A stretch of 64,000 nt of DNA, from assembly GCF_001677475.2 (NCBI RefSeq), contig NZ_CP015229.1; one strand, written 5' to 3'. The notes under the pieces are model-generated. The model ran no database searches. It had not been told where the DNA came from and worked only from the letters and a program-made list of their open reading frames with translations. Position numbers and translations under genes: made by a program. Source of the DNA: Escherichia coli (GTDB lineage Bacteria > Pseudomonadota > Gammaproteobacteria > Enterobacterales > Enterobacteriaceae). Positions 8,372 to 29,715 of this stretch are shown here, piece after piece (the stretch's first letter is position 1; each line of letters begins with the position of its first letter).

Positions 8372-10852
8372 TTACTGGCAAATATAATTTCTACTTTCAT
8401 CAATCTCTTTACCGAAGGTGATTGTGCATGAAAGTCCTTGTTGCTTATCAATTGCTACATTAACCGATGGCGGTACTTCATTGGTGCGAATAAATAACTG
8501 GCTTCCCTGGCCGACAACGCCAATATTATGACCATGGATATCATTGACTTCATAACCAAACGTTAATGGTTGACCATCCGCTCTTAACGCTTTTATAAAC
8601 CAGGGCTTGCGCTGATCGGTATCAAAATTAACCAGTACAACCGCGCCGCGAAAAGGGGCGGCAATTTTCCGGTTGCCACGTAATTCTGCTTCGCTATCGC
8701 TTTGCGACACATCCAGCATCAGGTGATTTTCCCGATAAGGTGTCATTCCGTCGTATACCACCACTCCATTATGGTTTGTTGTGCGATATTTTTGCCCATT
8801 GACATAAGCATCTTTAATTCCTGGCGCATTCATCACAGCAAACGTTTCGGAAAGACGGTTCGCCAGATTAACGCCACCCGACCAGGCGACAATGCCCCCT
8901 GAAACACTGGCTCCAGCCTGTCGATAAGTACTCGACTGACTATAACTGCCATTCACCGTTGCCACCGGCGCGTTCCAGGTTAAATTCGCTCCAGCTGTCG
9001 TTTCATTTCCCTGATGCTGATGACTCAGGTTGACCCCATAGTTAAATTGATCCCGGCTTCCAACGGTTCCCGATAATCCCGTATTATTTGAGGCAAAACC
9101 CTGATCATCAAACGTCGTTGAGTTAGACATATATATTTGCCGACGAGGCGTCGTAACGTCATCACCCCAATCAAAGGGAATCGATATAAAAATATTAAAA
9201 CGTTTCTCTTCATGATGATTCTCGTCATAAGCCTGGCTTGCCGCGAGGGTATAGCTTATCCGTCGCAGGTTGTTGGAATAACTCAACTGATAATCCTTAC
9301 TGCTGCCGCTACGCCCCCAGTAATCTCGCCATAACGTACTTAAGGACACAGAACCCCAGCCTTCTGGCAATGACTGGCTCATATTGGCAGAAAAGCTATT
9401 TTTACGGCCAAAATCGTTCTGGTAATAATCGGCAATGTCATAGATATCGTTTTCATCACGGCGATAATTATCTTTATTGTTTGCCCAAACGTGATCGTTA
9501 AATGTCCGGTAATCACGCGACGAATAACGCCAGGCCGCCAGACCAAAACGCGTCGACGTTTGGCTCACAAATTTGTTGTAGGCAATTTGATAACTTTGCC
9601 CGTCAAACACATCGCCGTTGTCTTGTTTACTATGCGACTTCGTGGCATCGACGGAAATGGCACCAATGCGTGTATTCCAGCCAGTCCCCAAAGTGAACGC
9701 GTAATAATTATTCGCGACCATCGATCCGCCATACAGCGTCAATAAGTTATTAAAACCATACTGATAACCCGCCTGGACAAAATCACTTTGTTTGCTCGCC
9801 CCTTCAATATGGCTACGACCCGCCGCAAAATCATATTTCGACACGCCAGGTTGCAGCATATTCGGCACCGCTGAATAAGGCACCAGATAGGTGGTTACCG
9901 AACCGTCCGCCTCTTTCACGCTGACATCAAGATCTGCTCCACCACCGGCCAACTGCAAATCTGTAATCGCAAACGGGCCAGGAGGAACCTCTTTCTGATA
10001 AACGACAAAACCATTCTGTTCAATAGTTACCAACGCGTTACTCTGAGCAATCCCCTGCACCCGTGGCGTAAAATTTTGTTTCGAGTTAGGCAACATCTGC
10101 ATATCACGAAACAACCGCACACCTCTGAAGCGAACAGAATCAAAAATATCGCTTGATGTATACATATCACCCACGCGAAGCGTGCCGAGAAGTTGGACAA
10201 ATCCACGTTCCAGATACAGGGTATTGCTTTTCCACACCCCTGGATTGTTATTTGTTTTACTGAAACTTGCATCAGAATGCAGTTGCCACCCCAGTAAATT
10301 TAACCCGCTGTTAAAACGTACATATGTACTCTTACTGTTACCCGACGCTTTATAGTCACTGTAATACTGACTCACATAATAAGAGGTATAAACCGCATTA
10401 ATACCCCGCTCCCAGTTTTCCGGTGGAACATAGCCACTTTCCAGTTCTTCCACCCAGGCCTGCGGGACACTGAAATCGAGACGAAAAACCCCGATATCCC
10501 AGGTATAGCTCCCACCCTGAACAAGTTGCTCAAATGTTAAACATTGCTTACCGCTGGCGAAGTTATCGCTATTAATGCCTAACCGCTTGATAACTTCTCT
10601 TGATAAACATGTTTCTTGCGGGTTGTCTTTAACAATAATCTCATATTTCCCGCGCCATTGCTTATTGACATAAATATCGATGTCATACTGCCCCGGCAAG
10701 GGTTGATTATCATCAAGACGAATATTTGCAACCTGCTGGTCTTTCATTCCACCTATCATAAAATGGGTATCAAAGGTTTCTTCAGCTGCATAAGCTTCAA
10801 TGCCGAGCAATAACGCTACGATTGCTGATGCAAGTGGGGTCATTCTCAACAT
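8372..10852 (-). CDS. yehB: fimbrial outer-membrane usher
   Basis: ~826-aa usher-family protein (start at Met 10852; ORF extends to 10867). Confidence 0.9.
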   Translation of the reverse strand: MLRMTPLASAIVALLLGIEAYAAEETFDTHFMIGGMKDQQVANIRLDDNQPLPGQYDIDIYVNKQWRGKYEIIVKDNPQETCLSREVIKRLGINSDNFASGKQCLTFEQLVQGGSYTWDIGVFRLDFSVPQAWVEELESGYVPPENWERGINAVYTSYYVSQYYSDYKASGNSKSTYVRFNSGLNLLGWQLHSDASFSKTNNNPGVWKSNTLYLERGFVQLLGTLRVGDMYTSSDIFDSVRFRGVRLFRDMQMLPNSKQNFTPRVQGIAQSNALVTIEQNGFVVYQKEVPPGPFAITDLQLAGGGADLDVSVKEADGSVTTYLVPYSAVPNMLQPGVSKYDFAAGRSHIEGASKQSDFVQAGYQYGFNNLLTLYGGSMVANNYYAFTLGTGWNTRIGAISVDATKSHSKQDNGDVFDGQSYQIAYNKFVSQTSTRFGLAAWRYSSRDYRTFNDHVWANNKDNYRRDENDIYDIADYYQNDFGRKNSFSANMSQSLPEGWGSVSLSTLWRDYWGRSGSSKDYQLSYSNNLRRISYTLAASQAYDENHHEEKRFNIFISIPFDWGDDVTTPRRQIYMSNSTTFDDQGFASNNTGLSGTVGSRDQFNYGVNLSHQHQGNETTAGANLTWNAPVATVNGSYSQSSTYRQAGASVSGGIVAWSGGVNLANRLSETFAVMNAPGIKDAYVNGQKYRTTNHNGVVVYDGMTPYRENHLMLDVSQSDSEAELRGNRKIAAPFRGAVVLVNFDTDQRKPWFIKALRADGQPLTFGYEVNDIHGHNIGVVGQGSQLFIRTNEVPPSVNVAIDKQQGLSCTITFGKEIDESRNYICQ

Positions 10853-16417: not shown

Positions 16418-19400
16418 ATGAGACACTTTATCTTTCAGGACGAAAAATCACATAAATTCTGGGCGGTGGAGCAGCAGGGAAACGAGCTGCATATCAACTG
16501 GGGAAAAGTCGGCACCAACGGGCAAAGTCAGGTAAAAAGCTTTGCTGATGCTGCGGCGGCGGAAAAAGCGGAACTGAAGTTGATTGCGGAGAAGATTAAG
16601 AAGGGGTATGTGGATGATGGTTCGCCAGAAACCATCATAAACTCTCCGATATCAAGCACAGTTTCAGTACAAGAGTTAGCAATATCAACAGGAAACTTCA
16701 CAACGACTGAAACGGCACAGCCACAAGCGATGCCCACGTTGGAAACGCCGCCCTGGCTGAAGAACGGTGAGTCAATTGTTATTTTTGCCAATGCTGAACC
16801 CGCGCCGTTTAGCCATCGTCACTTGATTAATGATCCTCTGGACATTGTTGATAAAGATGGCTTCTTCTGGATACAACTAAAAGAGTACCCATATTGGGCA
16901 GCATTTTACCTTGCCTGTCTGCAAAAGTTCGATGTCAGCCAATGCCAGTCAGAATGGCAATTGGCGTTACAGGAAACTATTTCGCGCATCCAGAAATTAC
17001 AGCAAGACGGATCGTTGCTTTCCGACGTCATATTGACACTGACAAGATTAATTATCGGCCGCCCCGGTCGCCCTCATACATGGCTGGATAGCATAGTGCA
17101 ACTGCGAGGCCTTGAGTATGCCACTGAGTTAGTTATCGCTATGCAGCATGTACAAATGACTGACGACGCAAATACCGATCCTACAAAAAATGCCACTTTA
17201 AAACTTCATTACAATAGTCTTTTTAGTGCGCTGAGAAGAGGGGAAATGGCAGACAATTATTATCTACCTGTAGTAAGCCTTAGCCACGATATTTCCGACA
17301 TGCGCTACAAATATGGATTCAGCGACGAAATAGAGTTACGTTTACGAGAACACCTTTCGCACACAGATGAGGAAACCTGGCAACGCTGTGCTAATAAACT
17401 CATAGATGCTCTCCCTTCACTGCCTCCCCGCAAACGCCCATTAATTGCTTTTTTGCTACCAGAAAAACCAGATATTGCCAATCAGATAGCCCTGGAAATT
17501 GCCCCTATGCATGATTACCCAGAGATTGAGTGGCTTTCCCTTGTCACAACTGACCCGCAAGCAACGTGTCTGCTGAAGAATTTCCATCAACTTGAACTCA
17601 CAACGGGATGGGGAGGCGATATGACGAATCGTTGTATTAAAACCCTACTGCGTGAACAAGGTCTTAATGCCCTGTCACGTCTGCAAGAGGGAGTTAACGA
17701 TAGTTATCCTGTCAGACACGCACTTCAGGAAATTAACCATCCTGATGTCGTTACGTTGTTTATCAAAGAGGAATGTGCCATAGGTGTCGAAATTTCGGCT
17801 TCGAAGTACCCAGAATCGGCGCTTTATGCCCTTACTGCAGCTTTGCTTAGTGCTAAAAATCTGAGGTATTCTCGCCTGATGGAACGAATTGTATTAGGTA
17901 ATGCTCAAACCTTGCGTAATACAATGCCCTGGTTGAGTGAGGAACAGAAACAACTTTTATTCAGTTATTTTCCTCAACTTCATGCTAAAGAAGAGATAGC
18001 CAATGCTTGTGAGTTACCCGGTATATTAACTAATCCAATTTGGCTGAAGAAAAAGAATAAATCCGCCACGACGATATTTACATTACCCGTATTGCCTCTG
18101 GAGTCCATTGGCCCCAACCCTCAGCCACAACCCGAAGCAGAAATACCTTCTACTGCTGAAGTCTTACGCCACCTGGGATTCAGTAGTGGAGCATTTGAAG
18201 AGAATAATCCTGATCCAGAAAGATTCGATATTAAATGGGGCGTAACCAAAACGGCCATTCGTCTTCTGGAAACGGAAGATTATGAATCGTTGTTAAATAC
18301 CCGACCAAAGTATGATTATGAAGGTTTTATTACCTTTTATGTATCCATACTCACTCGTCTACCAGCAGAGAAAGCGCTCTCAATCTGGAATGGACTCTCA
18401 CACATGCACCTCGTGGGTGCTGAGAAAGTGGTTGAGCGATTTGGTCTATCTACGGTACCGGGTCTGTTGCGTTATGCCCTGGTAAACCCTAAGGAGGCGG
18501 TTCCCCTGGCAGCACAATTCGGTGCAACTGAAGTTGCCCTGCTGATGGCCCGCGCATTTTGCCAGTTAAAATCCGTACGAGATGTCGCCGAATATTGGCT
18601 CACCACCTACCCGGAACATGCCATTACCGGGCTGCTGCCTATTGCGCTGGGTAAACCAGTTAAAGAACAACAAGATGCCCGGATGACATTACGCTACCTG
18701 GTCAATAATGGTCATCTCGCGTTGCTGAAAAAAATTGCCAGCCGTTACCAACAACCTGAGGTAATAACTGCACTTACCGACTTTTTAGCAGCAGATCCGC
18801 TGGAAAACTATCCACAGAAAATCGCCAAACTCCCTGGGTGGTGTTCACCAGAAGTATGGCACCGCCCGCTTCTGCGCAGTAACGGCAAGGCACTTTCAGA
18901 TTCAGCCATCCTGCACCTGTGCACCATGCTCTCTTTTCCCCGCGAAGCCACCCTTTACCCAGGGATAACACAGGTAATCAAGGCCTGTACTCCGCAATCT
19001 CTTGCCGATTTCGCCTGGGATCTCTTCCTCAGTTGGGAATCTGCCAGTGGCTCCGCTAAAGATAACTGGGCATTTACCGCACTGGGGATTCTGGGCAACG
19101 ATGACACCGCCCGCAAACTCACCCCGCTCATCCGCGCCTGGCCGGGGGAATCTCAGCATAAACGCGCCACTGTCGGGCTGGATATTCTTGCTGCTATCGG
19201 CAGCGATATCGCCCTGATGCAGCTTAACGGCATCGCGCAAAAGCTAAAATTTAAAGCCTTGCAGGATCAGGCAAGAGTTAAAATCGCCCAGATTGCCGAA
19301 AGCCGCCAACTCACCGTCGCAGAAATGGAAGACCGGTTAGCGCCGGATCTCGGACTGGATGATAACGGCTCACTACTGCTGGATTTCGGCCCACGCCAGT

Positions 19401-20254
19401 TCACCGTCAGCTTTGATGAATCCTTAAAACCGTTTGTGCGCGATGCTTCCGGCAGCCGCCTGAAAGACCTGCCCAAACCGAACAAAAGCGATGATGAAAC
19501 ACTGGCTGAGGAAGCGGTAAATCGCTACAAGTTGTTGAAAAAAGATGTCCGCACGGTGGCAGCGCAACAAATTTCGCGTCTGGAAGCCGCCATGTGTCAG
19601 CGTCGCCGCTGGACAGCAGAACAGTTCCGCCTGTTTCTGGTTGAGCATCCCCTGGTACGTCATATCACCCAACGTCTGATGTGGGGCGTATACGATGCAG
19701 ATAATCAGCTTATCACCTGTTTTCGCGTGGCGGAGGATGGCAGTTTTAGCGACGGTCAGGATAACCCGTTAACCCCTGCGCAGGGTAGCATCGGTATCCC
19801 GCATGTGCTGGAAATCCCGGCCCCGCAGGCGGCTGAATTTGCTCAACTGTTTTCTGACTACGAACTCCTGCCACCGTTCCGTCAACTCGATCGCCCCTGG
19901 TCTCAGCTCTCTGATTCAGAAAAAAACAGCAACGATTTGCAGCGCTGGGCTGGTCGCCAGGCACCAAGTGGGCGCGTCGCCGGGCTGATGAATAAAGGCT
20001 GGCAACGGGGCGATGTGCTGGATGGTGGCGGCTATTACTCATTTTATAAAGCTGTGGATGATGGCTACGTCGAACTGAGTGTGACACCCGGCTTCAGTGT
20101 TGGATTACCCGTCACCGAAATCAGCGCCAGCCAAAAAATTGAGCACATTCAGTTGTGCAAACTGACGCCGCACAAATCGGTTTATCCCTTCTCCGTGCTC
20201 GACGACATCACCGCCAGCGAACTCATTAACGATATTGAATCACTGTTTGATTAA
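16418..20254 (+). CDS. molR: giant WGR-domain protein with DUF4132-like C-terminal region, paralog 1
   Basis: 1278-aa ORF; N-terminal ~65 aa with FQDEKSHKFWAVEQ...WGKVG (WGR-type) motif; first of three tandem paralogs; positional equivalent of K-12 molR (symbol assigned by position and recollection). Confidence 0.8.
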   Translation: MRHFIFQDEKSHKFWAVEQQGNELHINWGKVGTNGQSQVKSFADAAAAEKAELKLIAEKIKKGYVDDGSPETIINSPISSTVSVQELAISTGNFTTTETAQPQAMPTLETPPWLKNGESIVIFANAEPAPFSHRHLINDPLDIVDKDGFFWIQLKEYPYWAAFYLACLQKFDVSQCQSEWQLALQETISRIQKLQQDGSLLSDVILTLTRLIIGRPGRPHTWLDSIVQLRGLEYATELVIAMQHVQMTDDANTDPTKNATLKLHYNSLFSALRRGEMADNYYLPVVSLSHDISDMRYKYGFSDEIELRLREHLSHTDEETWQRCANKLIDALPSLPPRKRPLIAFLLPEKPDIANQIALEIAPMHDYPEIEWLSLVTTDPQATCLLKNFHQLELTTGWGGDMTNRCIKTLLREQGLNALSRLQEGVNDSYPVRHALQEINHPDVVTLFIKEECAIGVEISASKYPESALYALTAALLSAKNLRYSRLMERIVLGNAQTLRNTMPWLSEEQKQLLFSYFPQLHAKEEIANACELPGILTNPIWLKKKNKSATTIFTLPVLPLESIGPNPQPQPEAEIPSTAEVLRHLGFSSGAFEENNPDPERFDIKWGVTKTAIRLLETEDYESLLNTRPKYDYEGFITFYVSILTRLPAEKALSIWNGLSHMHLVGAEKVVERFGLSTVPGLLRYALVNPKEAVPLAAQFGATEVALLMARAFCQLKSVRDVAEYWLTTYPEHAITGLLPIALGKPVKEQQDARMTLRYLVNNGHLALLKKIASRYQQPEVITALTDFLAADPLENYPQKIAKLPGWCSPEVWHRPLLRSNGKALSDSAILHLCTMLSFPREATLYPGITQVIKACTPQSLADFAWDLFLSWESASGSAKDNWAFTALGILGNDDTARKLTPLIRAWPGESQHKRATVGLDILAAIGSDIALMQLNGIAQKLKFKALQDQARVKIAQIAESRQLTVAEMEDRLAPDLGLDDNGSLLLDFGPRQFTVSFDESLKPFVRDASGSRLKDLPKPNKSDDETLAEEAVNRYKLLKKDVRTVAAQQISRLEAAMCQRRRWTAEQFRLFLVEHPLVRHITQRLMWGVYDADNQLITCFRVAEDGSFSDGQDNPLTPAQGSIGIPHVLEIPAPQAAEFAQLFSDYELLPPFRQLDRPWSQLSDSEKNSNDLQRWAGRQAPSGRVAGLMNKGWQRGDVLDGGGYYSFYKAVDDGYVELSVTPGFSVGLPVTEISASQKIEHIQLCKLTPHKSVYPFSVLDDITASELINDIESLFD

Positions 20255-20266
20255 AAGGATTTAGCA

Positions 20267-23200
20267 ATGAAAACCTATATTTATCAGGACGAAAAATCAC
20301 ATAAATTCTGGGCGGTGGAGCAGCAAGACAACGAGCTGCATATTAGCTGGGGTAAAGTCGGTACTAACGGGCAAAGTCAGGTAAAAAGCTTTGCTGATGC
20401 TGCGGCGGCGGAAAAAGCGGAACTGAAGTTGATTGCGGAGAAAACAAAAAAGGGCTACGTAGAAGAAGTATCCGTGATAACACCGACATCTGTCCCCGTC
20501 CAGGTTATCGAATGCCCCGAAATAGCCCCTTTGCCACAAGACAAACCAGTATTTGTTGGAGACAACCTCCCCTGGCTGGCAGACGACGCCCAAATCATTT
20601 TACCGACAGAGGTTGCGCCAACCACACTAAGTCATCGACGCTGGCCTGGCGATCCTGTGCCACAGGAGAATGAATTAACTCTGCTACGCTCCGTCGCCGC
20701 GAATACTCACCGACGTTTTAAAAAGGTGATCACCTTCGATTACAGCACCTGTTCACTGGACTGGCAGCAGGCGATAACACAAGCAGTGGGCCTTATCGAC
20801 TCGCCGATTAGCACCACGCTACCACCGATGGTTCTGGCGGTACTGGTTGCGCTGGAACAAGGCTTCAATCGTAACGATCACGAAGAGTTAATGGATCAAA
20901 TTGTCCAGGAAGGTGGTCTGGAATATGCCACTGAGGTTGTCATTGCACTACAATTCATCCGCTTCGACTGGGATTATGATGCCCATCTTATTACGTTCAC
21001 CCCGGATGACAGGCAGCCTGGCTATCTGTTGCGCTTTGCCTCGGTTGAAATGCGCCTGCGCAAGCATTTCTCACTTGCAAATGACGATGTATGGCAGCGC
21101 TGCGCCGACAAACTGATTGCCGCTCTCGGAAACATGCCCGCCTGGCACCAGCCGCTGGTTGCACTATTGTTGCCGGAAAAACCAGAAGTAGCTCATGAGA
21201 TTGCCAGACATTTTTGCGGGCAAAAAGGGTTATATGCGCTGGAATGGCTAAAACTGACGGTCACCGATGCTCAGGTATTAGCAGACCTGGAAAAATACTA
21301 TCCAGGACAGCCTGGGCAGGTATTTGATGATTACTATGGCGGTAACATCTGGTGTGCGACAGCACTCCAGGAGCAAGGAGTCACTGCGCTGGCCCGTTTT
21401 GCCCATTACGCTACTGGTGACACATGTGGTGAAGTGTTGATGCATATCAACCACCCGCAGGCACTTACACTACTTATCCATGCAAGCGAGCAAGGAAAGC
21501 GTTGCCACGATCGCATGACAAAGGCTTTCGTTCGCTTCCCACACGCAGCGCTGGCGGCATTAGCAGAACTTCTGGCACAAAAAGATGAAAAGCGCTGGCG
21601 CATGATGCTAATGACGATGCTTATCTCGCAACCGGCACTAGCAGAACAGGTCACTCCCTGGCTCTCAACCCCCGCAGTTGCAGTGCTGAAATCATGCCAG
21701 CAACAACTGACACAGCCCTCAAACCATGCCAGCGCCGATCTACTGCCAGCCATATTAGTCTCACCGCCCTGGCTTTCGAAAAAGAAAAAATCTGTAATGC
21801 CGGTATTGGATTTAACGCCATTACCGCTGGAGTCATGCTGCACATTGACCGAGACGGCAGAAAAAGAGATTCATGCAAGGCATCGCTGGCACGCACATCA
21901 AATAGACGTCGGCCAAAAAGAGGATATTCAGAACTACCTGACACGTCTGGGTTTCAATCGCTGGAATAATGGCCAGTATATGAAAGCGTCTGATGCTGTT
22001 GTAGAACTCTGGCAGAGGGGAGATTATTCTGCGCTAATCAGCGAATTTAAAACCTTCTGGCACTCCTATCAACGGGAATGGCAGCTTTACATGTTAGCCG
22101 CCCTGCCTATCGAAAAAACAGCGCAGGCGTGGAATGTCCTCAGTAAAGAGCCACACGTCGGTGTCGAGTTTGTCATGACGCACCTGCAACTCGCTGGGTT
22201 ACAGGGTTTTATTCACTCCTTTTCACGCTATCCACAAGAAGCTCTGCCTGTAGCACAATATTTTGCGGCTATCGAATTAGCGCCACTGATCGCCCGCGCC
22301 TTCAACAAACTCAAAACCCTACGACAAGACGCCCGCACCTGGCTGCTGAAATACCCGGAACACGCCATTACCGGCCTGCTACCTTCGGCGCTCGGCAAAG
22401 CCGGTGAAGCACAGGATAACGCCCGCGCTGCCTTGCGTATGCTTACCGAAAACGGTCATCAGCCATTACTGCAAGAAATCGCCCGGCGTTATAACCAGCC
22501 GGAAGTAACAGATGCGGTGAACGCTCTGCTTGCGCTCGATCCCTTAGATAATCACCCGACAAAAATCCCCACTCTTCCGGCCTTTTATCAGCCATCGCTC
22601 TGGACGCGCCCGGTATTAAAAGCAAATGCCCAATCACTGCCAGATAGCGCCCTCCTACGCCTCGGCGAAATGCTCCGCTTCCCTCAGGAAGAGGCACTGT
22701 ATCCGGGATTATTGCAGGTGAAAGCCGCCTGTACCGCCGACTCACTGGCTGAATTTGCCTGGGATCTGTTTACCGCCTGGCAGACCGCTGGCGCACCGTC
22801 GAAAGAAAGCTGGGCGTTCACTGCGTTAGGTGTTCTCGGCAACGATGACACCGCCCGCAAACTGACGCCTTTGATTCGCGCCTGGCCTGGTGAATCCCAG
22901 CATAAACGCGCCACCGTCGGGCTGGATATTCTCGCTGCTATCGGTAGTGATATCGCCCTGATGCAGCTTAACGGGATCGCCCAGAAACTGAAATTCAAAG
23001 CATTACAGGAGCGGGCAAAAGAAAAAATTGCCGACATTGCCGAGAGTCGCGAACTGACGGTAGCGGAGCTTGAAGATCGGTTAGCACCGGATCTCGGTCT
23101 GGATGATAACGGTTCGCTGCTGCTGGATTTTGGCCCACGGCAGTTCGCCGTCAGCTTTGATGAAACCTTAAAACCGTTTGTGCGCGATGTTTCCGGCAGC

Positions 23201-24028
23201 CGCCTGAAAGACTTACCTAAACCCAATAAAAGCGATGATGAATCACAGGCGAACGATGCTGTTAACCGCTACAAATTGCTGAAAAAAGATGCGCGTACCG
23301 TCGCCGCCCAGCAGGTAGCAAGGCTGGAATCCGCCATGTGCCTGCGCCGCCGCTGGTCGCCGGAAAACTTTCAGCTCTTCCTGGTTGAGCATCCGCTGGT
23401 TCGTCACTTAACCCGCCGTCTGATTTGGGGCGTTTATAGCGCCGAAAACGAGCTACTGGCTTGCTTTCGCGTGGCGGAAGATAACAGCTACAGCACCACA
23501 GACGATGATCTTTTCACCCTGCCGGAAGGCGATATCTCTGTTGGTATTCCTCACGTTCTGGAAATATCACCCACGGATGCCGCTGCCTTTGGTCAGCTTT
23601 TTGCCGACTACGAACTGTTACCGCCGTTCCGCCAGCTTGACCGCAACAGTTACGCGCTGACAGAAGCCGAACGCAACGCCAGTGAACTGTCCCGCTGGGC
23701 CGGCAGAAAATGTCCGAGCGGTCGAGTAATGGGGCTGGCGAATAAAGGCTGGATGCGTGGTGAACCGCAGGACGGTGGCTGGATCAGCTGGATGATCAAA
23801 CCTCTGGGCCGCTGGTCGTTAATTATGGAAATCGATGAAGGTTTTGCGGTCGGCATGTCGCCAGCCGAACTGAGTGCCGAGCAACTCTTAAGCAAGGTGT
23901 GGCTATGGAAAGGCAAAGCAGAAAACTATGGCTGGAGGAGTTATTCAACACAGGAAGCGCAGTTCTCCGTACTCGATGACATCACCGCCAGCGAGCTGAT
24001 TAGCGATATTGAATCTCTGTTTGAATAA
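20267..24028 (+). CDS. giant WGR-domain / DUF4132-like protein, paralog 2
   Basis: 1253-aa ORF 12 bp after paralog 1 (AAGGA SD); N-terminal WGR region and C-terminal ~450 aa highly similar to paralog 1, central region divergent. Confidence 0.85.
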   Translation: MKTYIYQDEKSHKFWAVEQQDNELHISWGKVGTNGQSQVKSFADAAAAEKAELKLIAEKTKKGYVEEVSVITPTSVPVQVIECPEIAPLPQDKPVFVGDNLPWLADDAQIILPTEVAPTTLSHRRWPGDPVPQENELTLLRSVAANTHRRFKKVITFDYSTCSLDWQQAITQAVGLIDSPISTTLPPMVLAVLVALEQGFNRNDHEELMDQIVQEGGLEYATEVVIALQFIRFDWDYDAHLITFTPDDRQPGYLLRFASVEMRLRKHFSLANDDVWQRCADKLIAALGNMPAWHQPLVALLLPEKPEVAHEIARHFCGQKGLYALEWLKLTVTDAQVLADLEKYYPGQPGQVFDDYYGGNIWCATALQEQGVTALARFAHYATGDTCGEVLMHINHPQALTLLIHASEQGKRCHDRMTKAFVRFPHAALAALAELLAQKDEKRWRMMLMTMLISQPALAEQVTPWLSTPAVAVLKSCQQQLTQPSNHASADLLPAILVSPPWLSKKKKSVMPVLDLTPLPLESCCTLTETAEKEIHARHRWHAHQIDVGQKEDIQNYLTRLGFNRWNNGQYMKASDAVVELWQRGDYSALISEFKTFWHSYQREWQLYMLAALPIEKTAQAWNVLSKEPHVGVEFVMTHLQLAGLQGFIHSFSRYPQEALPVAQYFAAIELAPLIARAFNKLKTLRQDARTWLLKYPEHAITGLLPSALGKAGEAQDNARAALRMLTENGHQPLLQEIARRYNQPEVTDAVNALLALDPLDNHPTKIPTLPAFYQPSLWTRPVLKANAQSLPDSALLRLGEMLRFPQEEALYPGLLQVKAACTADSLAEFAWDLFTAWQTAGAPSKESWAFTALGVLGNDDTARKLTPLIRAWPGESQHKRATVGLDILAAIGSDIALMQLNGIAQKLKFKALQERAKEKIADIAESRELTVAELEDRLAPDLGLDDNGSLLLDFGPRQFAVSFDETLKPFVRDVSGSRLKDLPKPNKSDDESQANDAVNRYKLLKKDARTVAAQQVARLESAMCLRRRWSPENFQLFLVEHPLVRHLTRRLIWGVYSAENELLACFRVAEDNSYSTTDDDLFTLPEGDISVGIPHVLEISPTDAAAFGQLFADYELLPPFRQLDRNSYALTEAERNASELSRWAGRKCPSGRVMGLANKGWMRGEPQDGGWISWMIKPLGRWSLIMEIDEGFAVGMSPAELSAEQLLSKVWLWKGKAENYGWRSYSTQEAQFSVLDDITASELISDIESLFE

Positions 24029-24037
24029 GGAAATAAC

Positions 24038-27000
24038 ATGAACAAGGAATTACCGTGGCTGGCGGATAACGCACAACTGGAACTGAAATATAAAAAAGGC
24101 AAAACGCCGCTCAGCCATCGCAGTTGGCCGGGCGAACCGGTGCCTGTTATTACTGAAAGCCTCATCCAGACACTGGGTGATGAATTGCTACAAAAAGCTG
24201 AGAAGAAAAAAAACATTATCTGGCGTTATGAAAATTTTTCACTGGAGTAGCAGTCCGCCATCACGGAAGCCATCAACTTGATTGGCGAACACAAACCCTC
24301 AATTCCGGCACGGACAATGGCGGCGCTAGTCTGTATCGCGCAAAAGGACAGCCAACAGTTGCTCGACGAAATCGTCCAACAAGAGGGACTGGAATATGCG
24401 ACTGAGGTGGTGATTGCACGCCAGTTTATTACACGATGTTATGAGAGTGATCCTCTGCTAGTGACATTGCAGTATCAGAACGAGGACTATGGCTATGGTT
24501 ATCGCTCAGAAACCTATAACGAATTCGATCTGCGACTGCGTAAGCATCTCTCTCTGGCAGAGGAAAGCTGCTGGCAGCGTTGCGCCGACAAACTCATTGC
24601 CGCACTGCCAGGAATACCCAAAATTCGCCGTCCTTTTATTGCGCTGGTCCTCCCGGAAAAACCAGAAATAGCCAATGAGTTGGTAGGTCTTGAATGCCCG
24701 CGGACTCATTTTCATTCTAAGGAGTGGTTAAAAGCTGTTGCTACTGCCCCCCGGGCGGTGAGAAAACTCGAACACTACTGGAGCCAGGATATATTTAGCG
24801 ATCGCGAAGCCAGCTACATGTCGCATGAAAACCGCTTCGGGTACGCGGCCTGCGCCGCCCTTTTGCGTGAACAAGGACTGGCAGCCGTTCCGCGCCTGGC
24901 AATGTATGCCCATAGAGAGGATTGCGGAAGCCTGCTGGTACAAATTAACCATCCGCAGGTCATCCGCACCTTGCTGTTAGTTGCTGATAAAAACAAACCC
25001 AGCCTGCAACGTGTGGCTAAATACAGTAAAAATTTCCCCCACGCGACACTCGCCGCACTGGCAGAACTGCTGGCGCTAAAAGAACCACCTGCGCGTCCTG
25101 GTTATCCAATCATCGAAGACAAAAAGCTGCCTGCACAGCAAAAAGCACGTGATGAATACTGGCGTACGCTGTTACAAACGCTGATGGCATCGCAGCCACA
25201 ACTGGCAGAAGAGGTGATGCCGTGGTTAAGTACTCAAGCCCGGTCAGTGCTGAATAGTTATTTATCGGCACCGCCTAAAACGGTTATTGATAGCACCGAT
25301 AACAGCCAAATGCCTGAAATCCTCGTTTCACCACCGTGGCGTAGTAAGAAAAAAATGACAGTTCCACGTCTTGATTTGGCACCGTTCGAATTAACGCCGC
25401 AAGTTTACTGGAAACCAGGCGAACGAGAGAGGCTTGCCGCCACTGAGTCTGCCCGTTATTTCAGTACGGAATCTCTTGCGGAACGCATGGAACATAAAAG
25501 TGGACGAGTTGTACTACAGGAGCTGGGTTTTGGAGATGATGTATGGCTGTTTTTGAATTATATACTCCCCGGAAAACTGGATGCTGCACGCAATTCACTC
25601 ATTGTTCAGTGGCATTACTACCCAGGGCGGGTTGAAGAGATCATGAATGGCTGGAGCTCCCCGGAAGCTCAATTAGCAGAACAGGCGCTTCGCAGCGGTC
25701 ACGTAGAAGTGTTAATTAACATATGGGAAAATGACAGCTACTCACGCTATCGTCGGGAAAAGAGTATCTGGAACCTGTATTTATTGGCGCAGTTGCCGCG
25801 TGAGATGGCTTTGACTTTCTGGCTACGTATCAATGAGAAAAAGCATCTGTCTGCGGGTGAGGACTATTTTCTCAGTATCTTCGGATTGGATGCTCTACTA
25901 GGTCTGCTGTTGGCTTTTTCACATCGTCCAAAAGAAACATTTCCGTTAATTTTAAATTTCGGCGCAACCGAACTAGCCCTGCCCGTTGCCCGCGTCTGGC
26001 GACGTTTCGCGGCGCAGCGTGATCTGGCCCGCCAGTGGATTTTACAATGGCCGGAACATACGGCTACTGCACTTATCCCTCTTGTCTTCACCAAATCCAG
26101 CGATAATAGCGAAGCTGCATTACTTGCCCTGCGTTTACTTTACGAACAGGGACATGGCGAGTTACTGCAAACCGTGGCAAACCGCTGGCAGCGTACAGAT
26201 GTATGGCCTGCCCTGGAGCAATTACTTAAACAGAGTCCAATAGAGATTTACCCGACACGCATTCCAAAAGCCCCTGATTTCTGGCAGCCGGCAATGTGGT
26301 CCAGGCCGCGCCTTATCACGAATAATCAACCTGTTACTGATGACGCTCTGGAAATTATCGGCGAAATGCTGCGCTTTACCCAGGGCGGACGTTTTTATAG
26401 CGGACTGGAACAGCTGAAAACGTTTTGCCAGCCGCAAACGCTGGCAGCCTTTGCCTGGGATCTTTTCACCGCGTGGCAACAAGCTGGTGCTCCCGCAAAA
26501 GACAACTGGGCATTTCTGGCGTTAAGTCTCTTTGGCGACGAAAGCACGGCACGGGATCTGACGACACAGATCCTTGCCTGGCCACAGGAAGGCAAATCTG
26601 CCCGTGCTGTCAGTGGTCTGAATATACTTACTCAGATGAATAATGATATGGCACTGATACAGTTGCATCATATATCGCAACGGGCGAAATCCCGCCCCTT
26701 ACGTGATAACGCGGCGGAATTTCTTCAGGTGGTCGCAGAAAATCGCGGGCTAAGCCAGGAACAGTTAGCGGACAGATTAGTCCCAACACTGGGTCTTGAT
26801 GATCCGCAGGCGTTGATTTTTGATTTTGGTCCACGGCAATTTACCGTTCGCTTCGATGAAAACCTTAACCCGGTTATCTTTGATCAGCAAAACGTTCGCC
26901 AGAAAAGCGTTCCCCGGTTGCGCGCCGATGACGATCAACTGAAAGCACCCGAGGCACTGGCCCGACTAAAAGGGCTAAAAAAAGATGCCACTCAGGTGAG

Positions 27001-27670
27001 CAAAAACCTGCTCCCGCGTCTTGAAACTGCCCTGCGCACCACCCGACGCTGGTCGCTGGCAGATTTTCATTCTCTGTTTGTTAATCATCCCTTTACCCGC
27101 CTGGTTACTCGGCGATTGATATGGGGTGTTTATCCGGCAAATGAACCGCGTCGTTTACTCAACGCCTTTCGTGTGGCCGCTGAGGGGGAGTTCTGCAATG
27201 CGCAAGATGAGCCAATTGACCTGCCTGCCGATGCTCTGATTGGCATTGCCCACCCGTTAGAAATGGCAGCAGAAATGCGCAGTGAATTTGCACAGCTTTT
27301 TGCCGATTACGAAATTATGCCGCCTTTTCGCCAGTTGGCACGGCGCACAGTGCTGCTCACGCCTGACGAGTCAGCCAGTAATAGTTTGAATCGCTGGGAA
27401 GGTAAATCTGCTACCGTTGGGCAACTTATGGGAATGCGATACAAAGGCTGGGAGTCAGGCTATGAGAACGCATTTGTCTATGACCTGGGCGAGTACCGGC
27501 TGGTCCTTAAGTTTTCATCCGGTTTTAACCACTACAATGTTGATAGCAAAGCGCTAATGAGCTTCCGTTCTCTTCATGTATACCGTGAGAATAAATCTGT
27601 CACTTTTGCCGAACTTGATGTGTTTGATTTGAGTGAAGCGTTAAGCGCACCCGACGTTATTTTCCATTAA
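24038..27670 (+). pseudogene. yehI: third paralog (YehI-like, lacks WGR N-terminus) interrupted by in-frame amber codon
   Basis: ORFs 24038-24250 and 24278-27670 are in the same frame, separated only by TAG at 24248-24250, which aligns with a Trp codon in paralog 2; read-through length would be 1210 aa. Confidence 0.75.
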
Positions 27671-27730
27671 AACACAGCGGGCAGTGATGCGACTGCCCGT
27701 TATTAACACGACCTGCCACCGGGAAAAGCG

Positions 27731-28051
27731 ATGATCGTGCAAAAAGAGCTGGTCACTATTTACGATTATGAGGCCCCTGTACCTGAAGAGCCGTTTTCCT
27801 TCAGGCTTGAGATCCATAAACGCTCTGAATTATTTACAGGTTCCGTCTATCGACTGGAACGATTCCGGCTACGTCCAACATTTCATCAACGTGATCGAGA
27901 AGATGTCGACCCGCTAATAAATGATGCGTTGATTTATATAAGAGATGAGTTTATTGATGAGCGAAAATTACGAGGTGAATCACCTGAAACTGTAATAGCA
28001 ATTTTTAATCGCGAACTACAAAATATATTCAACCAACAAATAGAAAAATAG
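27731..28051 (+). CDS. yehK: small acidic protein of unknown function
   Basis: 106-aa ORF 60 bp downstream of paralog array; recognised as YehK. Confidence 0.8.
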   Translation: MIVQKELVTIYDYEAPVPEEPFSFRLEIHKRSELFTGSVYRLERFRLRPTFHQRDREDVDPLINDALIYIRDEFIDERKLRGESPETVIAIFNRELQNIFNQQIEK

Positions 28052-28061
28052 CTTTATTAAA

Positions 28062-28081
28062 GGGGGAAACGGTATTCCCCC
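28062..28081. terminator. bidirectional intrinsic terminator (yehK / small toxin ORF)
   Basis: Stem GGGGGAA/TTCCCCC with 6-nt loop between convergent yehK (+) and the 29-codon ORF (-). Confidence 0.6.
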
Positions 28082-28104
28082 TTAGATGCGTTTCAATTTG
28101 CCCG

Positions 28105-28194
28105 TTACTTCAACAAATCAATCAACCGTAACAGAGCCACTAATAGCTCCAGTACAGCAATGAGCACGGTTAACTTTTGTGTCAGCGTGTCCAT
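28105..28194 (-). CDS. zorO: 29-aa hydrophobic peptide, type I toxin-like (ZorO-like)
   Basis: ATG 28194 preceded by AAGGAG SD; translation MDTLTQKLTVLIAVLELLVALLRLIDLLK; ~175-nt leader from a consensus promoter; leader contains a 19-nt site complementary to the divergent sRNA. Symbol is from recollection of the ZorO-OrzO architecture. Confidence 0.6.
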   Translation of the reverse strand: MDTLTQKLTVLIAVLELLVALLRLIDLLK

Positions 28195-28432: not shown

Positions 28433-28515
28433 GTTGGAACACGATGTTGCACAGGCTGCGGTGTTGGGCCTGAAAATAGTAAATAAAAGAACCTGCCTCA
28501 CCAGCAGGTTTTTTT
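28433..28515 (+). ncRNA. orzO: small RNA, candidate type I antitoxin (OrzO-like)
   Basis: Consensus promoter directly upstream; 5' end UUGGAACACGAUGUUGCAC is complementary (18 of 19) to toxin leader site at 28267-28285; ends at strong terminator CCTGC-N7-GCAGG plus T7 (28492-28515). Confidence 0.55.
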
Positions 28516-28626: not shown

Positions 28627-29715
28627 ATGTCACCGCAGAATAATCATCTGCAGCGTCCGCCTGCCGCTGTGTTATACGCCGATGAACTGGCAAAATTAAA
28701 ACAAAATGATAACGCACCTTGCCCGCCAGGTTGGCAGTTAAGTTTGCCTGCGGCCCGCGCTTTTATCCTTGGCGACGAAGCGCAAAATATTAGCCGTAAA
28801 GTCGTGATCAGTCCCTCCGCTGTCGAACGCATGTTAGTCACTCTCGCTACCGGGCGCGGTTTGATGTTGGTGGGGGAACCTGGCACCGCAAAATCTCTCC
28901 TGTCTGAATTACTGGCGACCGCTATTAGCGGCGATGCCGGGTTAACCATCCAGGGCGGCGCATCTACCACCGAAGATCAAATCAAGTACGGCTGGAACTA
29001 CGCCCTGCTTATCAACCATGGTCCGTCAACGGAAGCGCTGGTCCCTGCCCCGCTTTACCAGGGAATGCGCGACGGCAAAATTGTCCGTTTTGAAGAGATA
29101 ACGCGTACACCGCTGGAAGTACAAGACTGTCTGTTAGGTATGCTTTCTGACAGGGTAATGACGGTGCCGGAACTCACTGGTGAAGCCAGTCAGCTCTATG
29201 CGCGGGAAGGCTTTAATATTATTGCCACTGCCAATACCCGCGATCGCGGCGTCAATGAAATGAGTGCTGCGCTAAAGCGTCGCTTCGATTTTGAAACTGT
29301 CTTTCCGATTATGGATTTCGCCCAGGAGCTGGAACTGGTCGCCAGTGCTTCCGCGCGTTTGCTGGCCCATAGCGGTATTCCGCATAAAGTGCCTGACGCG
29401 GTACTGGAATTACTGGTGCGCACGTTCCGCGATCTGCGTGCCAACGGCGAAAAGAAAACGTCAATGGATACACTGACAGCGATTATGTCCACCGCTGAAG
29501 CCGTTAACGTGGCCCATGCTGTGGGTGTCCGCGCCTGGTTTTTAGCGAATCGCGCGGGGGAGCCTGCCGACCTGGTGGATTGTATTGCCGGAACCATCGT
29601 CAAAGATAACGAAGAAGATCGCGCGCGTCTGCGCCGTTACTTCGAACAGCGCGTCGCCACACATAAAGAAGCTCACTGGCAGGCTTATTATCAAGCTCGC
29701 CACCGCCTGCCGTGA
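28627..29715 (+). CDS. yehL: MoxR-like AAA+ ATPase (AAA_5 type)
   Basis: 362-aa product from ATG 28627; Walker A LVGEPGTAKS, Walker B-like VRFEEIT; ORF N-terminal extension from 28561 rejected. Confidence 0.85.
   Translation: MSPQNNHLQRPPAAVLYADELAKLKQNDNAPCPPGWQLSLPAARAFILGDEAQNISRKVVISPSAVERMLVTLATGRGLMLVGEPGTAKSLLSELLATAISGDAGLTIQGGASTTEDQIKYGWNYALLINHGPSTEALVPAPLYQGMRDGKIVRFEEITRTPLEVQDCLLGMLSDRVMTVPELTGEASQLYAREGFNIIATANTRDRGVNEMSAALKRRFDFETVFPIMDFAQELELVASASARLLAHSGIPHKVPDAVLELLVRTFRDLRANGEKKTSMDTLTAIMSTAEAVNVAHAVGVRAWFLANRAGEPADLVDCIAGTIVKDNEEDRARLRRYFEQRVATHKEAHWQAYYQARHRLP

What the first reader, a model, noticed from the sequence alone, without database searches (positions are those of the whole stretch)
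27731..28051. yehK: small acidic protein apparently co-transcribed with the giant paralog array
A 106-aa protein rich in Glu/Asp/Arg follows the third paralog after 60 bp with no intervening terminator; a terminator follows yehK instead. A small acidic protein encoded directly downstream of large polymorphic proteins is reminiscent of immunity or regulatory partners, though there is no direct evidence here.
Basis: inference. Interest (0 to 1): 0.3.

Follow-up and report, generated by a model that had tools for sequence, protein, structure and literature searches.

The report
yehK: likely orphan Rhs-toxin immunity gene
yehK is a real small gene that looks like a stray antidote ("immunity") gene against a so far undescribed bacterial contact-weapon toxin, and it was inserted next to the giant WGR/DUF4132 genes in Escherichia rather than being their partner.

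Summary
The ORF is real: 27731-28051, 106 aa, pI 5.1, 60 nt after yehI. It is E. coli yehK (b4541) and is under purifying selection (dN/dS about 0.2).

A full HMMER profile search found distant relatives (23-48% identity). In seven independent loci these lie directly downstream of one particular ~62-aa Cys/His-rich domain (W.C.ASCNV…RVTG…AKR.ATQ…RHC.C.C). That domain sits at the C-terminal tip of Rhs/YD-repeat toxins or occurs as a small protein with a signal-peptide-like N-terminus. Other relatives sit in immunity-gene arrays, for example next to Imm9. Neither family matches Pfam, NCBIfam or PDB sequences.

The WGR/DUF4132-AAA-DUF5682-VWA-SWIM cassette of four other genera has no yehK. In Escherichia, yehK is an AT-rich insert (39% versus 50-55% GC) beside the zorO/orzO toxin-antitoxin module.

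About 16% of complete E. coli genomes carry a frameshifted yehK. A conserved GC-rich hairpin lies between yehI and yehK. The hairpin after yehK belongs to zorO.

Best reading: yehK is an orphan immunity gene. This is inferred and untested.

The parts
27731..28051 (+). yehK coding sequence: 106 aa, soluble, with no predicted transmembrane segment. It is a member of an unannotated family of about 100-120-aa proteins with the motif F.FRLEI…G.VYRLE.YRLQPTFPQ…DDALIYV.D…G.S.EEV.
   Evidence: Searches give the ORF and composition. Searches give the identity with yehK/b4541. Searches show purifying selection. define the family. One search gives the AF2 model: pLDDT 86.7, four long antiparallel strands plus a C-terminal helix.
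27676..27701 (.). Conserved G+C-rich hairpin in the 60-nt yehI-yehK spacer. It may be a leaky terminator or stabiliser for yehI on the + strand. On the - strand it looks like a terminator (tail CTGTGTTTTA).
   Evidence: flags it on the - strand. One search gives the fold. One search shows the stem conserved in 11 Escherichia loci, with a different loop in E. whittamii and a G-U-compatible change in strain SC418.
28060..28083 (.). Hairpin GGGGGAA-N6-TTCCCCC, 8 nt after the yehK stop and 21 nt after the convergent zorO stop. It is shared as a bidirectional 3' hairpin and travels with the zorO module.
   Evidence: One search gives the fold. One search shows it present where zorO abuts yehK, displaced together with zorO in L026, and absent after yehK in K-12.
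28105..28194 (-). zorO type I toxin gene (29 aa, MDTLTQKLTVLIAVLELLVALLRLIDLLK), convergent with yehK. It is a neighbour, not part of yehK.
   Evidence: Searches give the peptide and its position. (Fozo et al. 2010, PMC2887945) reports two tandem 29-aa toxin genes (z3289, z3290) with sRNA partners between yehI and yehL in O157:H7. Calling these zorO/zorP is from my own knowledge.
28440..28515 (+). OrzO antitoxin sRNA gene. It is a neighbour.
   Evidence: Rfam RF02083, 101 bits against a gathering score of 60, E = 4e-17.
24038..27670 (+). yehI, the third WGR/DUF4132 paralog immediately upstream. In this window it is interrupted by an in-frame TAG at codon 71.
   Evidence: DUF4132 domain; W71* compared with K-12.
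28627..29715 (+). yehL, the AAA_5/MoxR-type ATPase gene. In other genera it directly follows the DUF4132 gene. yehK plus zor-orz occupy the gap here.
   Evidence: searches show DUF4132-to-AAA gaps of 61 nt, a 4-nt overlap and 15 nt in Iodobacter, Streptomyces and Bacillus.

Best explanation
YehK is a cytoplasmic immunity-type protein. Its family neutralises, most likely by direct binding, a small (~62 aa) Cys/His-rich toxin domain. That domain is delivered at the C-terminal tip of Rhs/YD-repeat polymorphic toxins, or occurs as a small protein with a signal-peptide-like N-terminus.

In Escherichia the gene has no toxin partner. It is an orphan immunity gene: an AT-rich module that was inserted in the genus ancestor between yehI and yehL of the WGR/DUF4132-MoxR-DUF5682-VWA-SWIM cassette, beside the zorO/orzO module. 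It has since been kept by moderate purifying selection, presumably because it protects against that toxin when competitors deliver it.

Shown: the gene is real and constrained, the family exists, the family is linked to the toxin domain, and it is absent from DUF4132 cassettes elsewhere.

Inferred: binding and neutralisation, present-day protective function in E. coli, and how yehK is transcribed (probably read-through from yehI across a leaky hairpin).
For: 1. Family. A profile search of 1.84 billion representatives finds 52 proteins. These include about 100-120-aa relatives at 23-48% identity that share a clear motif. A second profile search adds more.

2. Pairing. A YehK-family gene follows the same toxin domain on the same strand in seven independent loci:
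- L003, 8-nt gap
- L004/5, 14 nt
- L008, 242 nt, tandem double immunity
- L010/11, 14 nt
- L018/19, about 5 nt; this immunity protein is 48% identical to YehK
- Ca. Thiodictyon plasmid L032, 8 nt, found prospectively by starting from the toxin
- L033, 9 nt, a stand-alone toxin with a signal-peptide-like N-terminus

3. Specificity. Where the Rhs tip is different (L006, L009), other small ORFs come first and the YehK-like gene lies further down an array.

4. Immunity arrays. Neighbours include Imm9 and DUF4265. Such polyimmunity loci, and toxin-less polyimmunity operons, are described in PMC3482391.

5. Not a cassette part. Complete DUF4132-AAA-DUF5682-VWA-SWIM cassettes in Iodobacter, Streptomyces, Agrobacterium and Bacillus, and a solitary DUF4132 locus in Rhodococcus, have no YehK-family ORF.

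6. Foreign composition. yehK is 38.9% GC (GC3 30.8%) against 49-56% for its neighbours. The toxin-immunity contigs L018 and L033 are 39.5% and 38.1% GC.

7. Different evolutionary rate. YehK is 78% identical between this window and E. whittamii, against 95% for the YehI C-terminus and 99% for YehL.

8. Selection. dN/dS is about 0.2 overall and 0.09 in the C-terminal half.

Against: - Nothing here shows binding or protection.
- No toxin of this family was found in Escherichia. The word-indexed search returned 23 proteins and none is named Escherichia. No E. coli genome matches the L018 toxin/immunity DNA. The threat YehK would answer is therefore hypothetical.
- About 16% of complete E. coli genomes carry a frameshifted allele and 3.5% lack the gene. 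It is therefore dispensable.
- YehK shares only 23-48% identity with the toxin-linked relatives, so its specificity may have drifted.
- The toxin domain's activity is unknown, and it is very small.
- Its fixed position and orientation behind yehI throughout the genus would also fit recruitment by the neighbouring system.
- The structural similarity to TriX lies within the noise band. Foldseek against PDB finds nothing.
Confidence: 0.6

Rival explanations
1. YehK is a partner of the WGR/DUF4132 paralogs or of the YehLMPQ MoxR-VWA machinery, as an immunity, regulatory or adaptor subunit. It is co-transcribed with them, either as originally proposed or through later recruitment of an imported immunity protein.
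For: yehK lies 60 nt downstream of yehI on the same strand, at the same place in every Escherichia locus read. No sigma-70-like promoter was detected just upstream on the + strand. The gene is retained across the genus under purifying selection.
Against: No YehK-family ORF is present in the four complete DUF4132 cassettes or the solitary DUF4132 locus read from four other phyla or classes. Family members elsewhere sit behind Rhs toxin tips or in immunity arrays, never beside WGR/DUF4132 genes. GC content and evolutionary rate differ from the neighbours. A conserved strong hairpin separates yehI from yehK. yehK is intact where yehI is broken (this window; strain SC418). Conversely, yehK is frameshifted where yehI is intact.
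Confidence: 0.12
2. yehK is a decaying relic of an old Rhs tip/immunity cassette. It has no present function and survives only because loss is slow.
For: There is no cognate toxin nearby or elsewhere in Escherichia. A 1-nt-deletion frameshift allele occurs in about 856 of 5426 genomes. An in-frame 15-nt deletion allele and an IS1-associated loss also exist. The N-terminal half is relaxed (pN/pS 0.35). The SD sequence is weak (sequence).
Against: The ORF has stayed open across the genus, from E. coli to E. whittamii, E. albertii, E. fergusonii and E. marmotae. dN/dS is well below 1, at 0.09 in the C-terminal half. The in-frame deletion falls in the family's length-variable loop.
Confidence: 0.2
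3. yehK belongs functionally to the adjacent zorO/orzO type I toxin-antitoxin module, with which it shares a 3' hairpin.
For: yehK and zorO are convergent and share the hairpin at 28060-28083. Both lie in the Escherichia-specific gap between yehI and yehL.
Against: K-12 keeps yehK but has lost zorO. Insertions separate the two in several strains. No YehK relative elsewhere lies next to a zor-like gene.
Confidence: 0.03

Closest known systems
Rhs C-terminal toxin / cognate immunity gene pairs (for example E. coli and Dickeya RhsA/RhsI; structurally, Xenorhabdus TreX-TriX, PDB 8s2m)
   Different: The Escherichia gene has no Rhs gene upstream. Neither the toxin domain nor the immunity family matches any Pfam, NCBIfam or PDB entry. 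The toxin domain is unusually small and Cys/His-rich, and also occurs as a stand-alone small protein with a signal-peptide-like N-terminus. The similarity to TriX is too weak to claim homology.
Orphan immunity genes and polyimmunity loci of polymorphic toxin systems (Zhang et al. 2012, PMC3482391; orphan cdiI/rhsI modules and acquired interbacterial defence clusters, from my own knowledge)
   Same: An immunity-family gene is kept without its toxin, presumably as pre-emptive protection. Relatives of YehK occur in mixed arrays with Imm9, Sel1/TPR and DUF4265 genes.
   Different: yehK is a single gene at a fixed core-genome position inside another operon-like cassette. It is conserved genus-wide rather than strain-variable, and it does not belong to any described Imm family.
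WGR/DUF4132 (MolR/YehI) + MoxR-type AAA (YehL) + DUF5682 (YehM) + VWA_CoxE (YehP) + SWIM (YehQ) cassette
   Same: It is the physical neighbour and is possibly co-transcribed with yehK in Escherichia.
   Different: The cassette is complete without yehK in Betaproteobacteria, Alphaproteobacteria, Actinomycetota and Bacillota. yehK differs from it in composition and evolutionary rate.

Membership tests
Immunity protein of an Rhs/polymorphic toxin (functional class) | Gene lies immediately downstream, on the same strand, of the toxin's variable C-terminal domain | tested here: met
   Met for the family in seven independent loci, with gaps of 5-242 nt. NOT met for the Escherichia gene itself: its upstream gene is yehI (DUF4132), and no toxin-domain ORF is found in the window. 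Hence 'orphan'.
Immunity protein of an Rhs/polymorphic toxin (functional class) | Immunity family co-varies with the toxin-tip family | tested here: met
   Seven of eight loci with the CNV…RHC domain are followed by a YehK-family gene. The exception is L034. Rhs genes with other tips (L006, L009) are followed first by unrelated ORFs.
Immunity protein of an Rhs/polymorphic toxin (functional class) | Occurs in arrays with other immunity genes or orphan toxin tips | tested here: met
   L018/19 has a second Rhs tip plus Imm9. L017 has DUF4265. L009 has Sel1/TPR genes. L010 has a downstream orphan Rhs fragment.
Immunity protein of an Rhs/polymorphic toxin (functional class) | Binds and neutralises the cognate toxin | not testable with these tools
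   This needs co-expression rescue, pull-down or a complex structure.
Described Imm/SUKH/other immunity families in Pfam | Sequence match to a curated model | tested here: not met
   None of the 74 family members matches any Pfam-A model at a meaningful E-value. YehK gives no NCBIfam or PADLOC hit. YehK is not mentioned in PMC3482391.
TriX-like immunity fold (PDB 8s2m) | Significant structural superposition | tested here: inconclusive
Component of the WGR/DUF4132-MoxR-DUF5682-VWA-SWIM cassette | Co-occurs with the cassette across taxa | tested here: not met
   Four complete cassettes and one solitary DUF4132 locus outside Escherichia contain no YehK-family ORF by HMM search of six-frame translations. 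YehK relatives elsewhere have no DUF4132 or WGR neighbour.
Component of the WGR/DUF4132-MoxR-DUF5682-VWA-SWIM cassette | Co-transcription with yehI | not testable with these tools
   Sequence alone gives a 60-nt gap, no + strand promoter match and a conserved hairpin with a weak T tail.
zor-orz type I toxin-antitoxin module | Always present together with zorO/orzO | tested here: not met
   K-12 has yehK and an OrzO-like sequence but no zorO. Insertions separate yehK from zorO in L014, L015 and L025.

The most novel reading that the evidence does not exclude
yehK marks a previously undescribed toxin-immunity pair. The toxin would be a roughly 62-aa Cys/His-rich (possibly zinc-binding) mini-toxin, used both as an Rhs tip and as a small protein with a signal-peptide-like N-terminus. 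Its beta-sheet-plus-helix immunity protein would have been fixed in the core genome of the whole genus Escherichia, K-12 included. That would give the genus innate resistance to a weapon of low-GC competitors. A more speculative extension is that the neighbouring MoxR-VWA/DUF4132 system has co-opted it.
Probability: 0.35. Interest if true: 0.6.

Novelty: new member of a known kind. Interest (0 to 1): 0.45.

Why it matters
yehK (b4541) is one of the E. coli K-12 genes with no known function and almost no literature. These results give it a concrete hypothesis that can be tested cheaply: does it protect against a defined small toxin domain?

They also define two protein families, the toxin and its immunity protein, that are absent from Pfam, NCBIfam and the PDB.

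They show as well that yehK should not be counted as part of the unexplained WGR/DUF4132-MoxR-VWA-SWIM cassette. That matters for anyone trying to work out that system.

If YehK protects, it would be an example of an immunity gene fixed genus-wide in a core-genome position rather than in a variable island.

Tried and rejected
- The word-indexed homolog search with YehK alone returned only Escherichia and Shigella proteins. That wrongly suggested a genus-restricted orphan. The full HMMER scan corrected this.
- AF2 with the shallow Escherichia-only alignment was useless (pLDDT 41). The 74-sequence alignment gave pLDDT 86.7.
- Two high-scoring hits of the profile search (P0071 at 2094 aa, P0092 at 556 aa) are repetitive artefacts and were discarded.
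- The genome-contig scan failed with the diverse alignment. With the narrower one it returned only three Escherichia species, so named isolates for the closest non-Escherichia relatives were not obtained.
- Several context look-ups landed on contigs too short to be informative (L002, L017).
- The afdb50 fold library was not available. Foldseek against PDB and against viral structures gave nothing.
- Pfam, NCBIfam and PDB searches with the toxin domain gave nothing.
- I looked for a remnant of the toxin domain upstream of yehK in the window and in E. coli loci, using regular expressions and an HMM on six-frame translations. There was none.
- I considered that YehI could be a polymorphic toxin with a variable tip. 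I rejected this because its C-terminus is conserved within the genus and aligns with homologs in other phyla.
- Literature searches for yehK, b4541 and DUF5682 found no functional study.

Full report
**1. What is in the window**

The window is Escherichia DNA, up to 98.4% identical to E. coli strain SC418. The gene order is:
- metG
- three WGR/DUF4132 paralogs: 16418-20254, 20267-24028 and 24038-27670
- yehK
- a zorO/orzO module
- yehL-yehM-yehP-yehQ, which encode AAA_5/MoxR, DUF5682, VWA_CoxE and SWIM proteins

The reported ORF is exactly at 27731-28051 (+) and encodes 106 aa with 21 D/E, 16 K/R and pI 5.1. It begins 60 nt after the yehI stop. It is the annotated yehK, which is b4541 and 105 aa in K-12.

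**2. It is a real gene**

- yehK is single-copy in 5234 of 5426 complete E. coli genomes.
- It is also found in E. fergusonii, E. albertii, E. marmotae, E. whittamii and two unnamed Escherichia species.
- In every Escherichia locus whose flanks were read (E. coli strains, E. whittamii and the two unnamed species) it lies between yehI and yehL.
- Pairwise dN/dS among nine intact alleles is 0.05-0.5, mostly about 0.2.
- For window versus E. whittamii there are 26 synonymous and 28 non-synonymous differences, Fisher p = 3e-6.
- Constraint is strongest in the C-terminal half (pN/pS 0.09, against 0.35 in the N-terminal half).
- The start codon matches the N-termini of distant relatives.
- The protein has no hydrophobic segment.

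**3. The gene is dispensable in part of the species**

- A 1-nt deletion at about codon 60 makes yehK a pseudogene in L025 and L026.
- The exact 60-mer of that allele occurs in 856 of the 5426 complete genomes, about 16%.
- A 15-nt in-frame deletion allele removes part of a loop that varies in length across the family.
- One strain lost the gene together with the end of yehI at an IS1 element.

**4.

The yehI-yehK spacer is not free of structure. A 10-bp G+C-rich hairpin lies at 27676-27701. An 81-nt stretch containing it folds at -24.9 kcal/mol. Its stem is conserved in all 11 Escherichia loci read. In E. whittamii the loop and flanks differ but the stem is intact, and SC418 has a G-U-compatible change. 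Its + strand tail (TTATTAAC) is a poor U tract. The consensus scan flags it only on the - strand.

The hairpin after yehK (28060-28083) lies between yehK and the convergent zorO gene. It stays with zorO when insertions separate the two genes, and it is missing after yehK in K-12, which lacks zorO. It is therefore better described as the zorO 3' hairpin, possibly bidirectional.

No sigma-70-like promoter was found just upstream of yehK on the + strand. Read-through from yehI remains plausible but unproven.

In this window yehI itself has a TGG->TAG stop at codon 71. In SC418, yehI is frameshifted.

**5. YehK is not part of the DUF4132 cassette**

tblastn with the YehI C-terminus found DUF4132 genes on plasmids of other phyla.
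- In Iodobacter (Betaproteobacteria), Streptomyces (Actinomycetota) and Bacillus mycoides (Bacillota), the DUF4132 gene is followed at once by the AAA, DUF5682, VWA and SWIM-position genes. The DUF4132-to-AAA gaps are 61 nt, a 4-nt overlap and 15 nt.
- In Agrobacterium vitis (Alphaproteobacteria) the same five genes are contiguous in another order.
- A Rhodococcus plasmid has a solitary DUF4132 gene.

An HMM of the YehK family finds nothing in any of these loci, while it recovers every positive control.

yehK also differs from its neighbours in composition: 38.9% GC (GC3 30.8%) against 49-56%. It differs in rate as well: 78% identity between the window and E. whittamii, against 95% for the YehI C-terminus and 99% for YehL.

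Together with zor-orz, yehK fills an Escherichia-specific gap between yehI and yehL.

**6. The family outside Escherichia**

The word-indexed search saw only Escherichia and Shigella. No Pfam, NCBIfam or PADLOC model matches YehK.

The exhaustive HMMER profile search found about 100-120-aa relatives at 23-48% identity. They share the pattern F.FRLEI … G.VYRLE.YRLQPTFPQ … DDALIYV.D … G.S.EEV. Some are tandem doubles of 210-260 aa.

None of 74 members matches Pfam, and the profile matches no PDB sequence.

With the 74-sequence alignment AF2 gives a confident model (pLDDT 86.7, pTM 0.76). It has four long antiparallel strands and a C-terminal helix.

**7. Genomic context of the relatives**

Loci where the YehK-like gene directly follows a giant Rhs/YD-repeat gene:
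- L004/5, 14-nt gap
- L008, 242 nt
- L010/11, 14 nt
- L003, where it follows the 3' end of such a gene by 8 nt

In all four loci the extreme C-terminus of the Rhs protein carries the same ~62-75-aa domain: W.C.(A/V)(S/R)CNV … (CPD/VP.R).(T/S)G…G … A…AKR.ATQ.AP.G.Y.RHC.C.C.

The subfamily closest to YehK (P0073, 48% identical) shows the same pairing. The Rhs core end (DPLGL) is followed by a linker and the toxin domain. The immunity ATG comes about 5 nt after the toxin stop. A second Rhs tip with Imm9 follows.

As a prospective test I started from the toxin domain instead.
- tblastn against plasmids gave a single hit, an Rhs protein of Ca. Thiodictyon syntrophicum. The 116-aa 'hypothetical protein' 8 nt downstream matches the YehK HMM at E = 5e-17.
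- A stand-alone 90-aa version of the domain, with an N-terminus that reads as a signal peptide, is followed 9 nt later by a YehK-family gene at 98 bits.
- One toxin-domain gene (L034) is followed by an unrelated 94-aa ORF.

The pairing therefore holds in seven of eight loci.

Where the Rhs tip is different (L006, L009), other small ORFs come first and the YehK-like gene lies further along. That is the pattern of immunity arrays described by Zhang et al. 2012 (PMC3482391).

Two relatives are orphans in housekeeping contexts (L002, L012), as in Escherichia.

**8. The toxin domain**

- It matches nothing in Pfam, NCBIfam or PDB sequences.
- It is usually preceded in Rhs proteins by a hydrophobic or glycine-rich segment.
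- Its conserved Cys/His pattern could bind a metal or form disulfides.
- Its activity is unknown.
- Because the immunity proteins lack N-terminal leader sequences, I infer a cytoplasmic site of action or of neutralisation.
- No member was found in Escherichia.
- No E. coli genome matches the L018 toxin/immunity DNA beyond the Rhs core end.

**9. Interpretation**

The best-supported reading is that the YehK family is the cognate immunity family of this toxin domain. I put confidence in that family-level statement at about 0.8. Escherichia yehK would then be an orphan copy, imported as an AT-rich module and kept under selection. A present-day protective role is inferred; overall confidence is 0.6.

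Rivals:
- A partner of the DUF4132/MoxR system, perhaps by later recruitment (0.12).
- A slowly decaying relic (0.2).
- A link to zor-orz (0.03).

**10. Novelty and score**

Orphan immunity genes and Rhs toxin-immunity pairs are well known. What is new is:
- the assignment of an uncharacterised K-12 gene to that class
- the definition of an unannotated toxin family and its immunity family
- the separation of yehK from the DUF4132 cassette

This is a new member of a known kind, with interest 0.45. The hypothesis is directly testable by toxicity and rescue experiments in K-12 with and without yehK.

Noticed in passing
window 28105-28194 (-) and 28440-28515 (+): A complete zorO/orzO type I toxin-antitoxin module lies between yehK and yehL. 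It comprises a 29-aa toxin (MDTLTQKLTVLIAVLELLVALLRLIDLLK) and the OrzO sRNA (Rfam RF02083, 101 bits). A promoter-like site on the - strand at 28403-28376 could drive zorO. This agrees with Fozo et al. 2010 (PMC2887945), who placed the locus between yehI and yehL in O157:H7.
   Followed up: partly
L020 (E. coli K-12 MG1655) 9410-9485, i.e. the yehK-yehL spacer: K-12 is reported to lack the zor-orz locus, and tblastn finds no zorO there. It still carries a 76-nt sequence 97% identical to OrzO. This is an apparently orphan antitoxin sRNA gene or remnant.
   Followed up: partly
window 24038-27670 (codon 71, 24248-24250): yehI, the paralog just upstream of yehK, has a TGG->TAG nonsense change relative to K-12. 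Otherwise it has the full K-12 length (3633 nt). The closest E. coli genome (SC418) has yehI frameshifted instead.
   Followed up: partly
window 16418-24028 compared with L020 and L001: The number and state of WGR/DUF4132 paralogs varies between strains. This window has two intact upstream paralogs (1278 and 1253 aa). K-12 has yehF plus a yehH pseudogene. SC418 has one intact paralog plus a frameshifted yehI.
   Followed up: no
window 27676-27701: The hairpin in the yehI-yehK spacer has a stem conserved across the genus while its loop and flanks change. It looks terminator-like on the minus strand. An in vitro sigma-S transcription study reported antisense signal from this 'intergenic' region in K-12 (PMC3141248).
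   Followed up: partly
L014, L015, L020, L025, L026 just after the yehK stop (aligned to window ~28049-28060): There are two classes of yehK 3' end. In one, the stop is followed directly by the zorO hairpin. In the other, the last codons change (…IE* instead of …IEK*) and unrelated sequence is inserted (TATACTCTAAATAATTCAAG…). The yehK stop is therefore a recurrent rearrangement junction.
   Followed up: no
L003, L004, L008, L010, L018, L032, L033 (toxin tips); proteins P0175-P0194: An unannotated ~62-aa Cys/His-rich domain (W.C.ASCNV…RVTG…EAC..AKR.ATQ.AP.G.Y.RHC.C.C) occurs at Rhs C-termini and as small stand-alone proteins, several with N-termini that read as signal peptides. It has no Pfam, NCBIfam or PDB match and its activity is unknown.
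   Followed up: partly
L027 (Iodobacter fluviatilis plasmid pl1) 6586-24000: The DUF4132-AAA-DUF5682-VWA-SWIM cassette sits on a mobilizable plasmid, flanked by IS elements and directly next to a type I restriction-modification system. That context hints at a defence role for the cassette. PADLOC has no model for any of its proteins.
   Followed up: no
window 27911-28045 (codons 61-105 of yehK): The AT-rich 3' half of yehK (about 33% GC) is much more conserved than the 5' half, also at synonymous sites. For window versus E. whittamii, pS is 0.25 against 0.46. This could reflect extra constraint at the nucleotide level, for example antisense transcription from the zorO side, or recombination.
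   Followed up: partly
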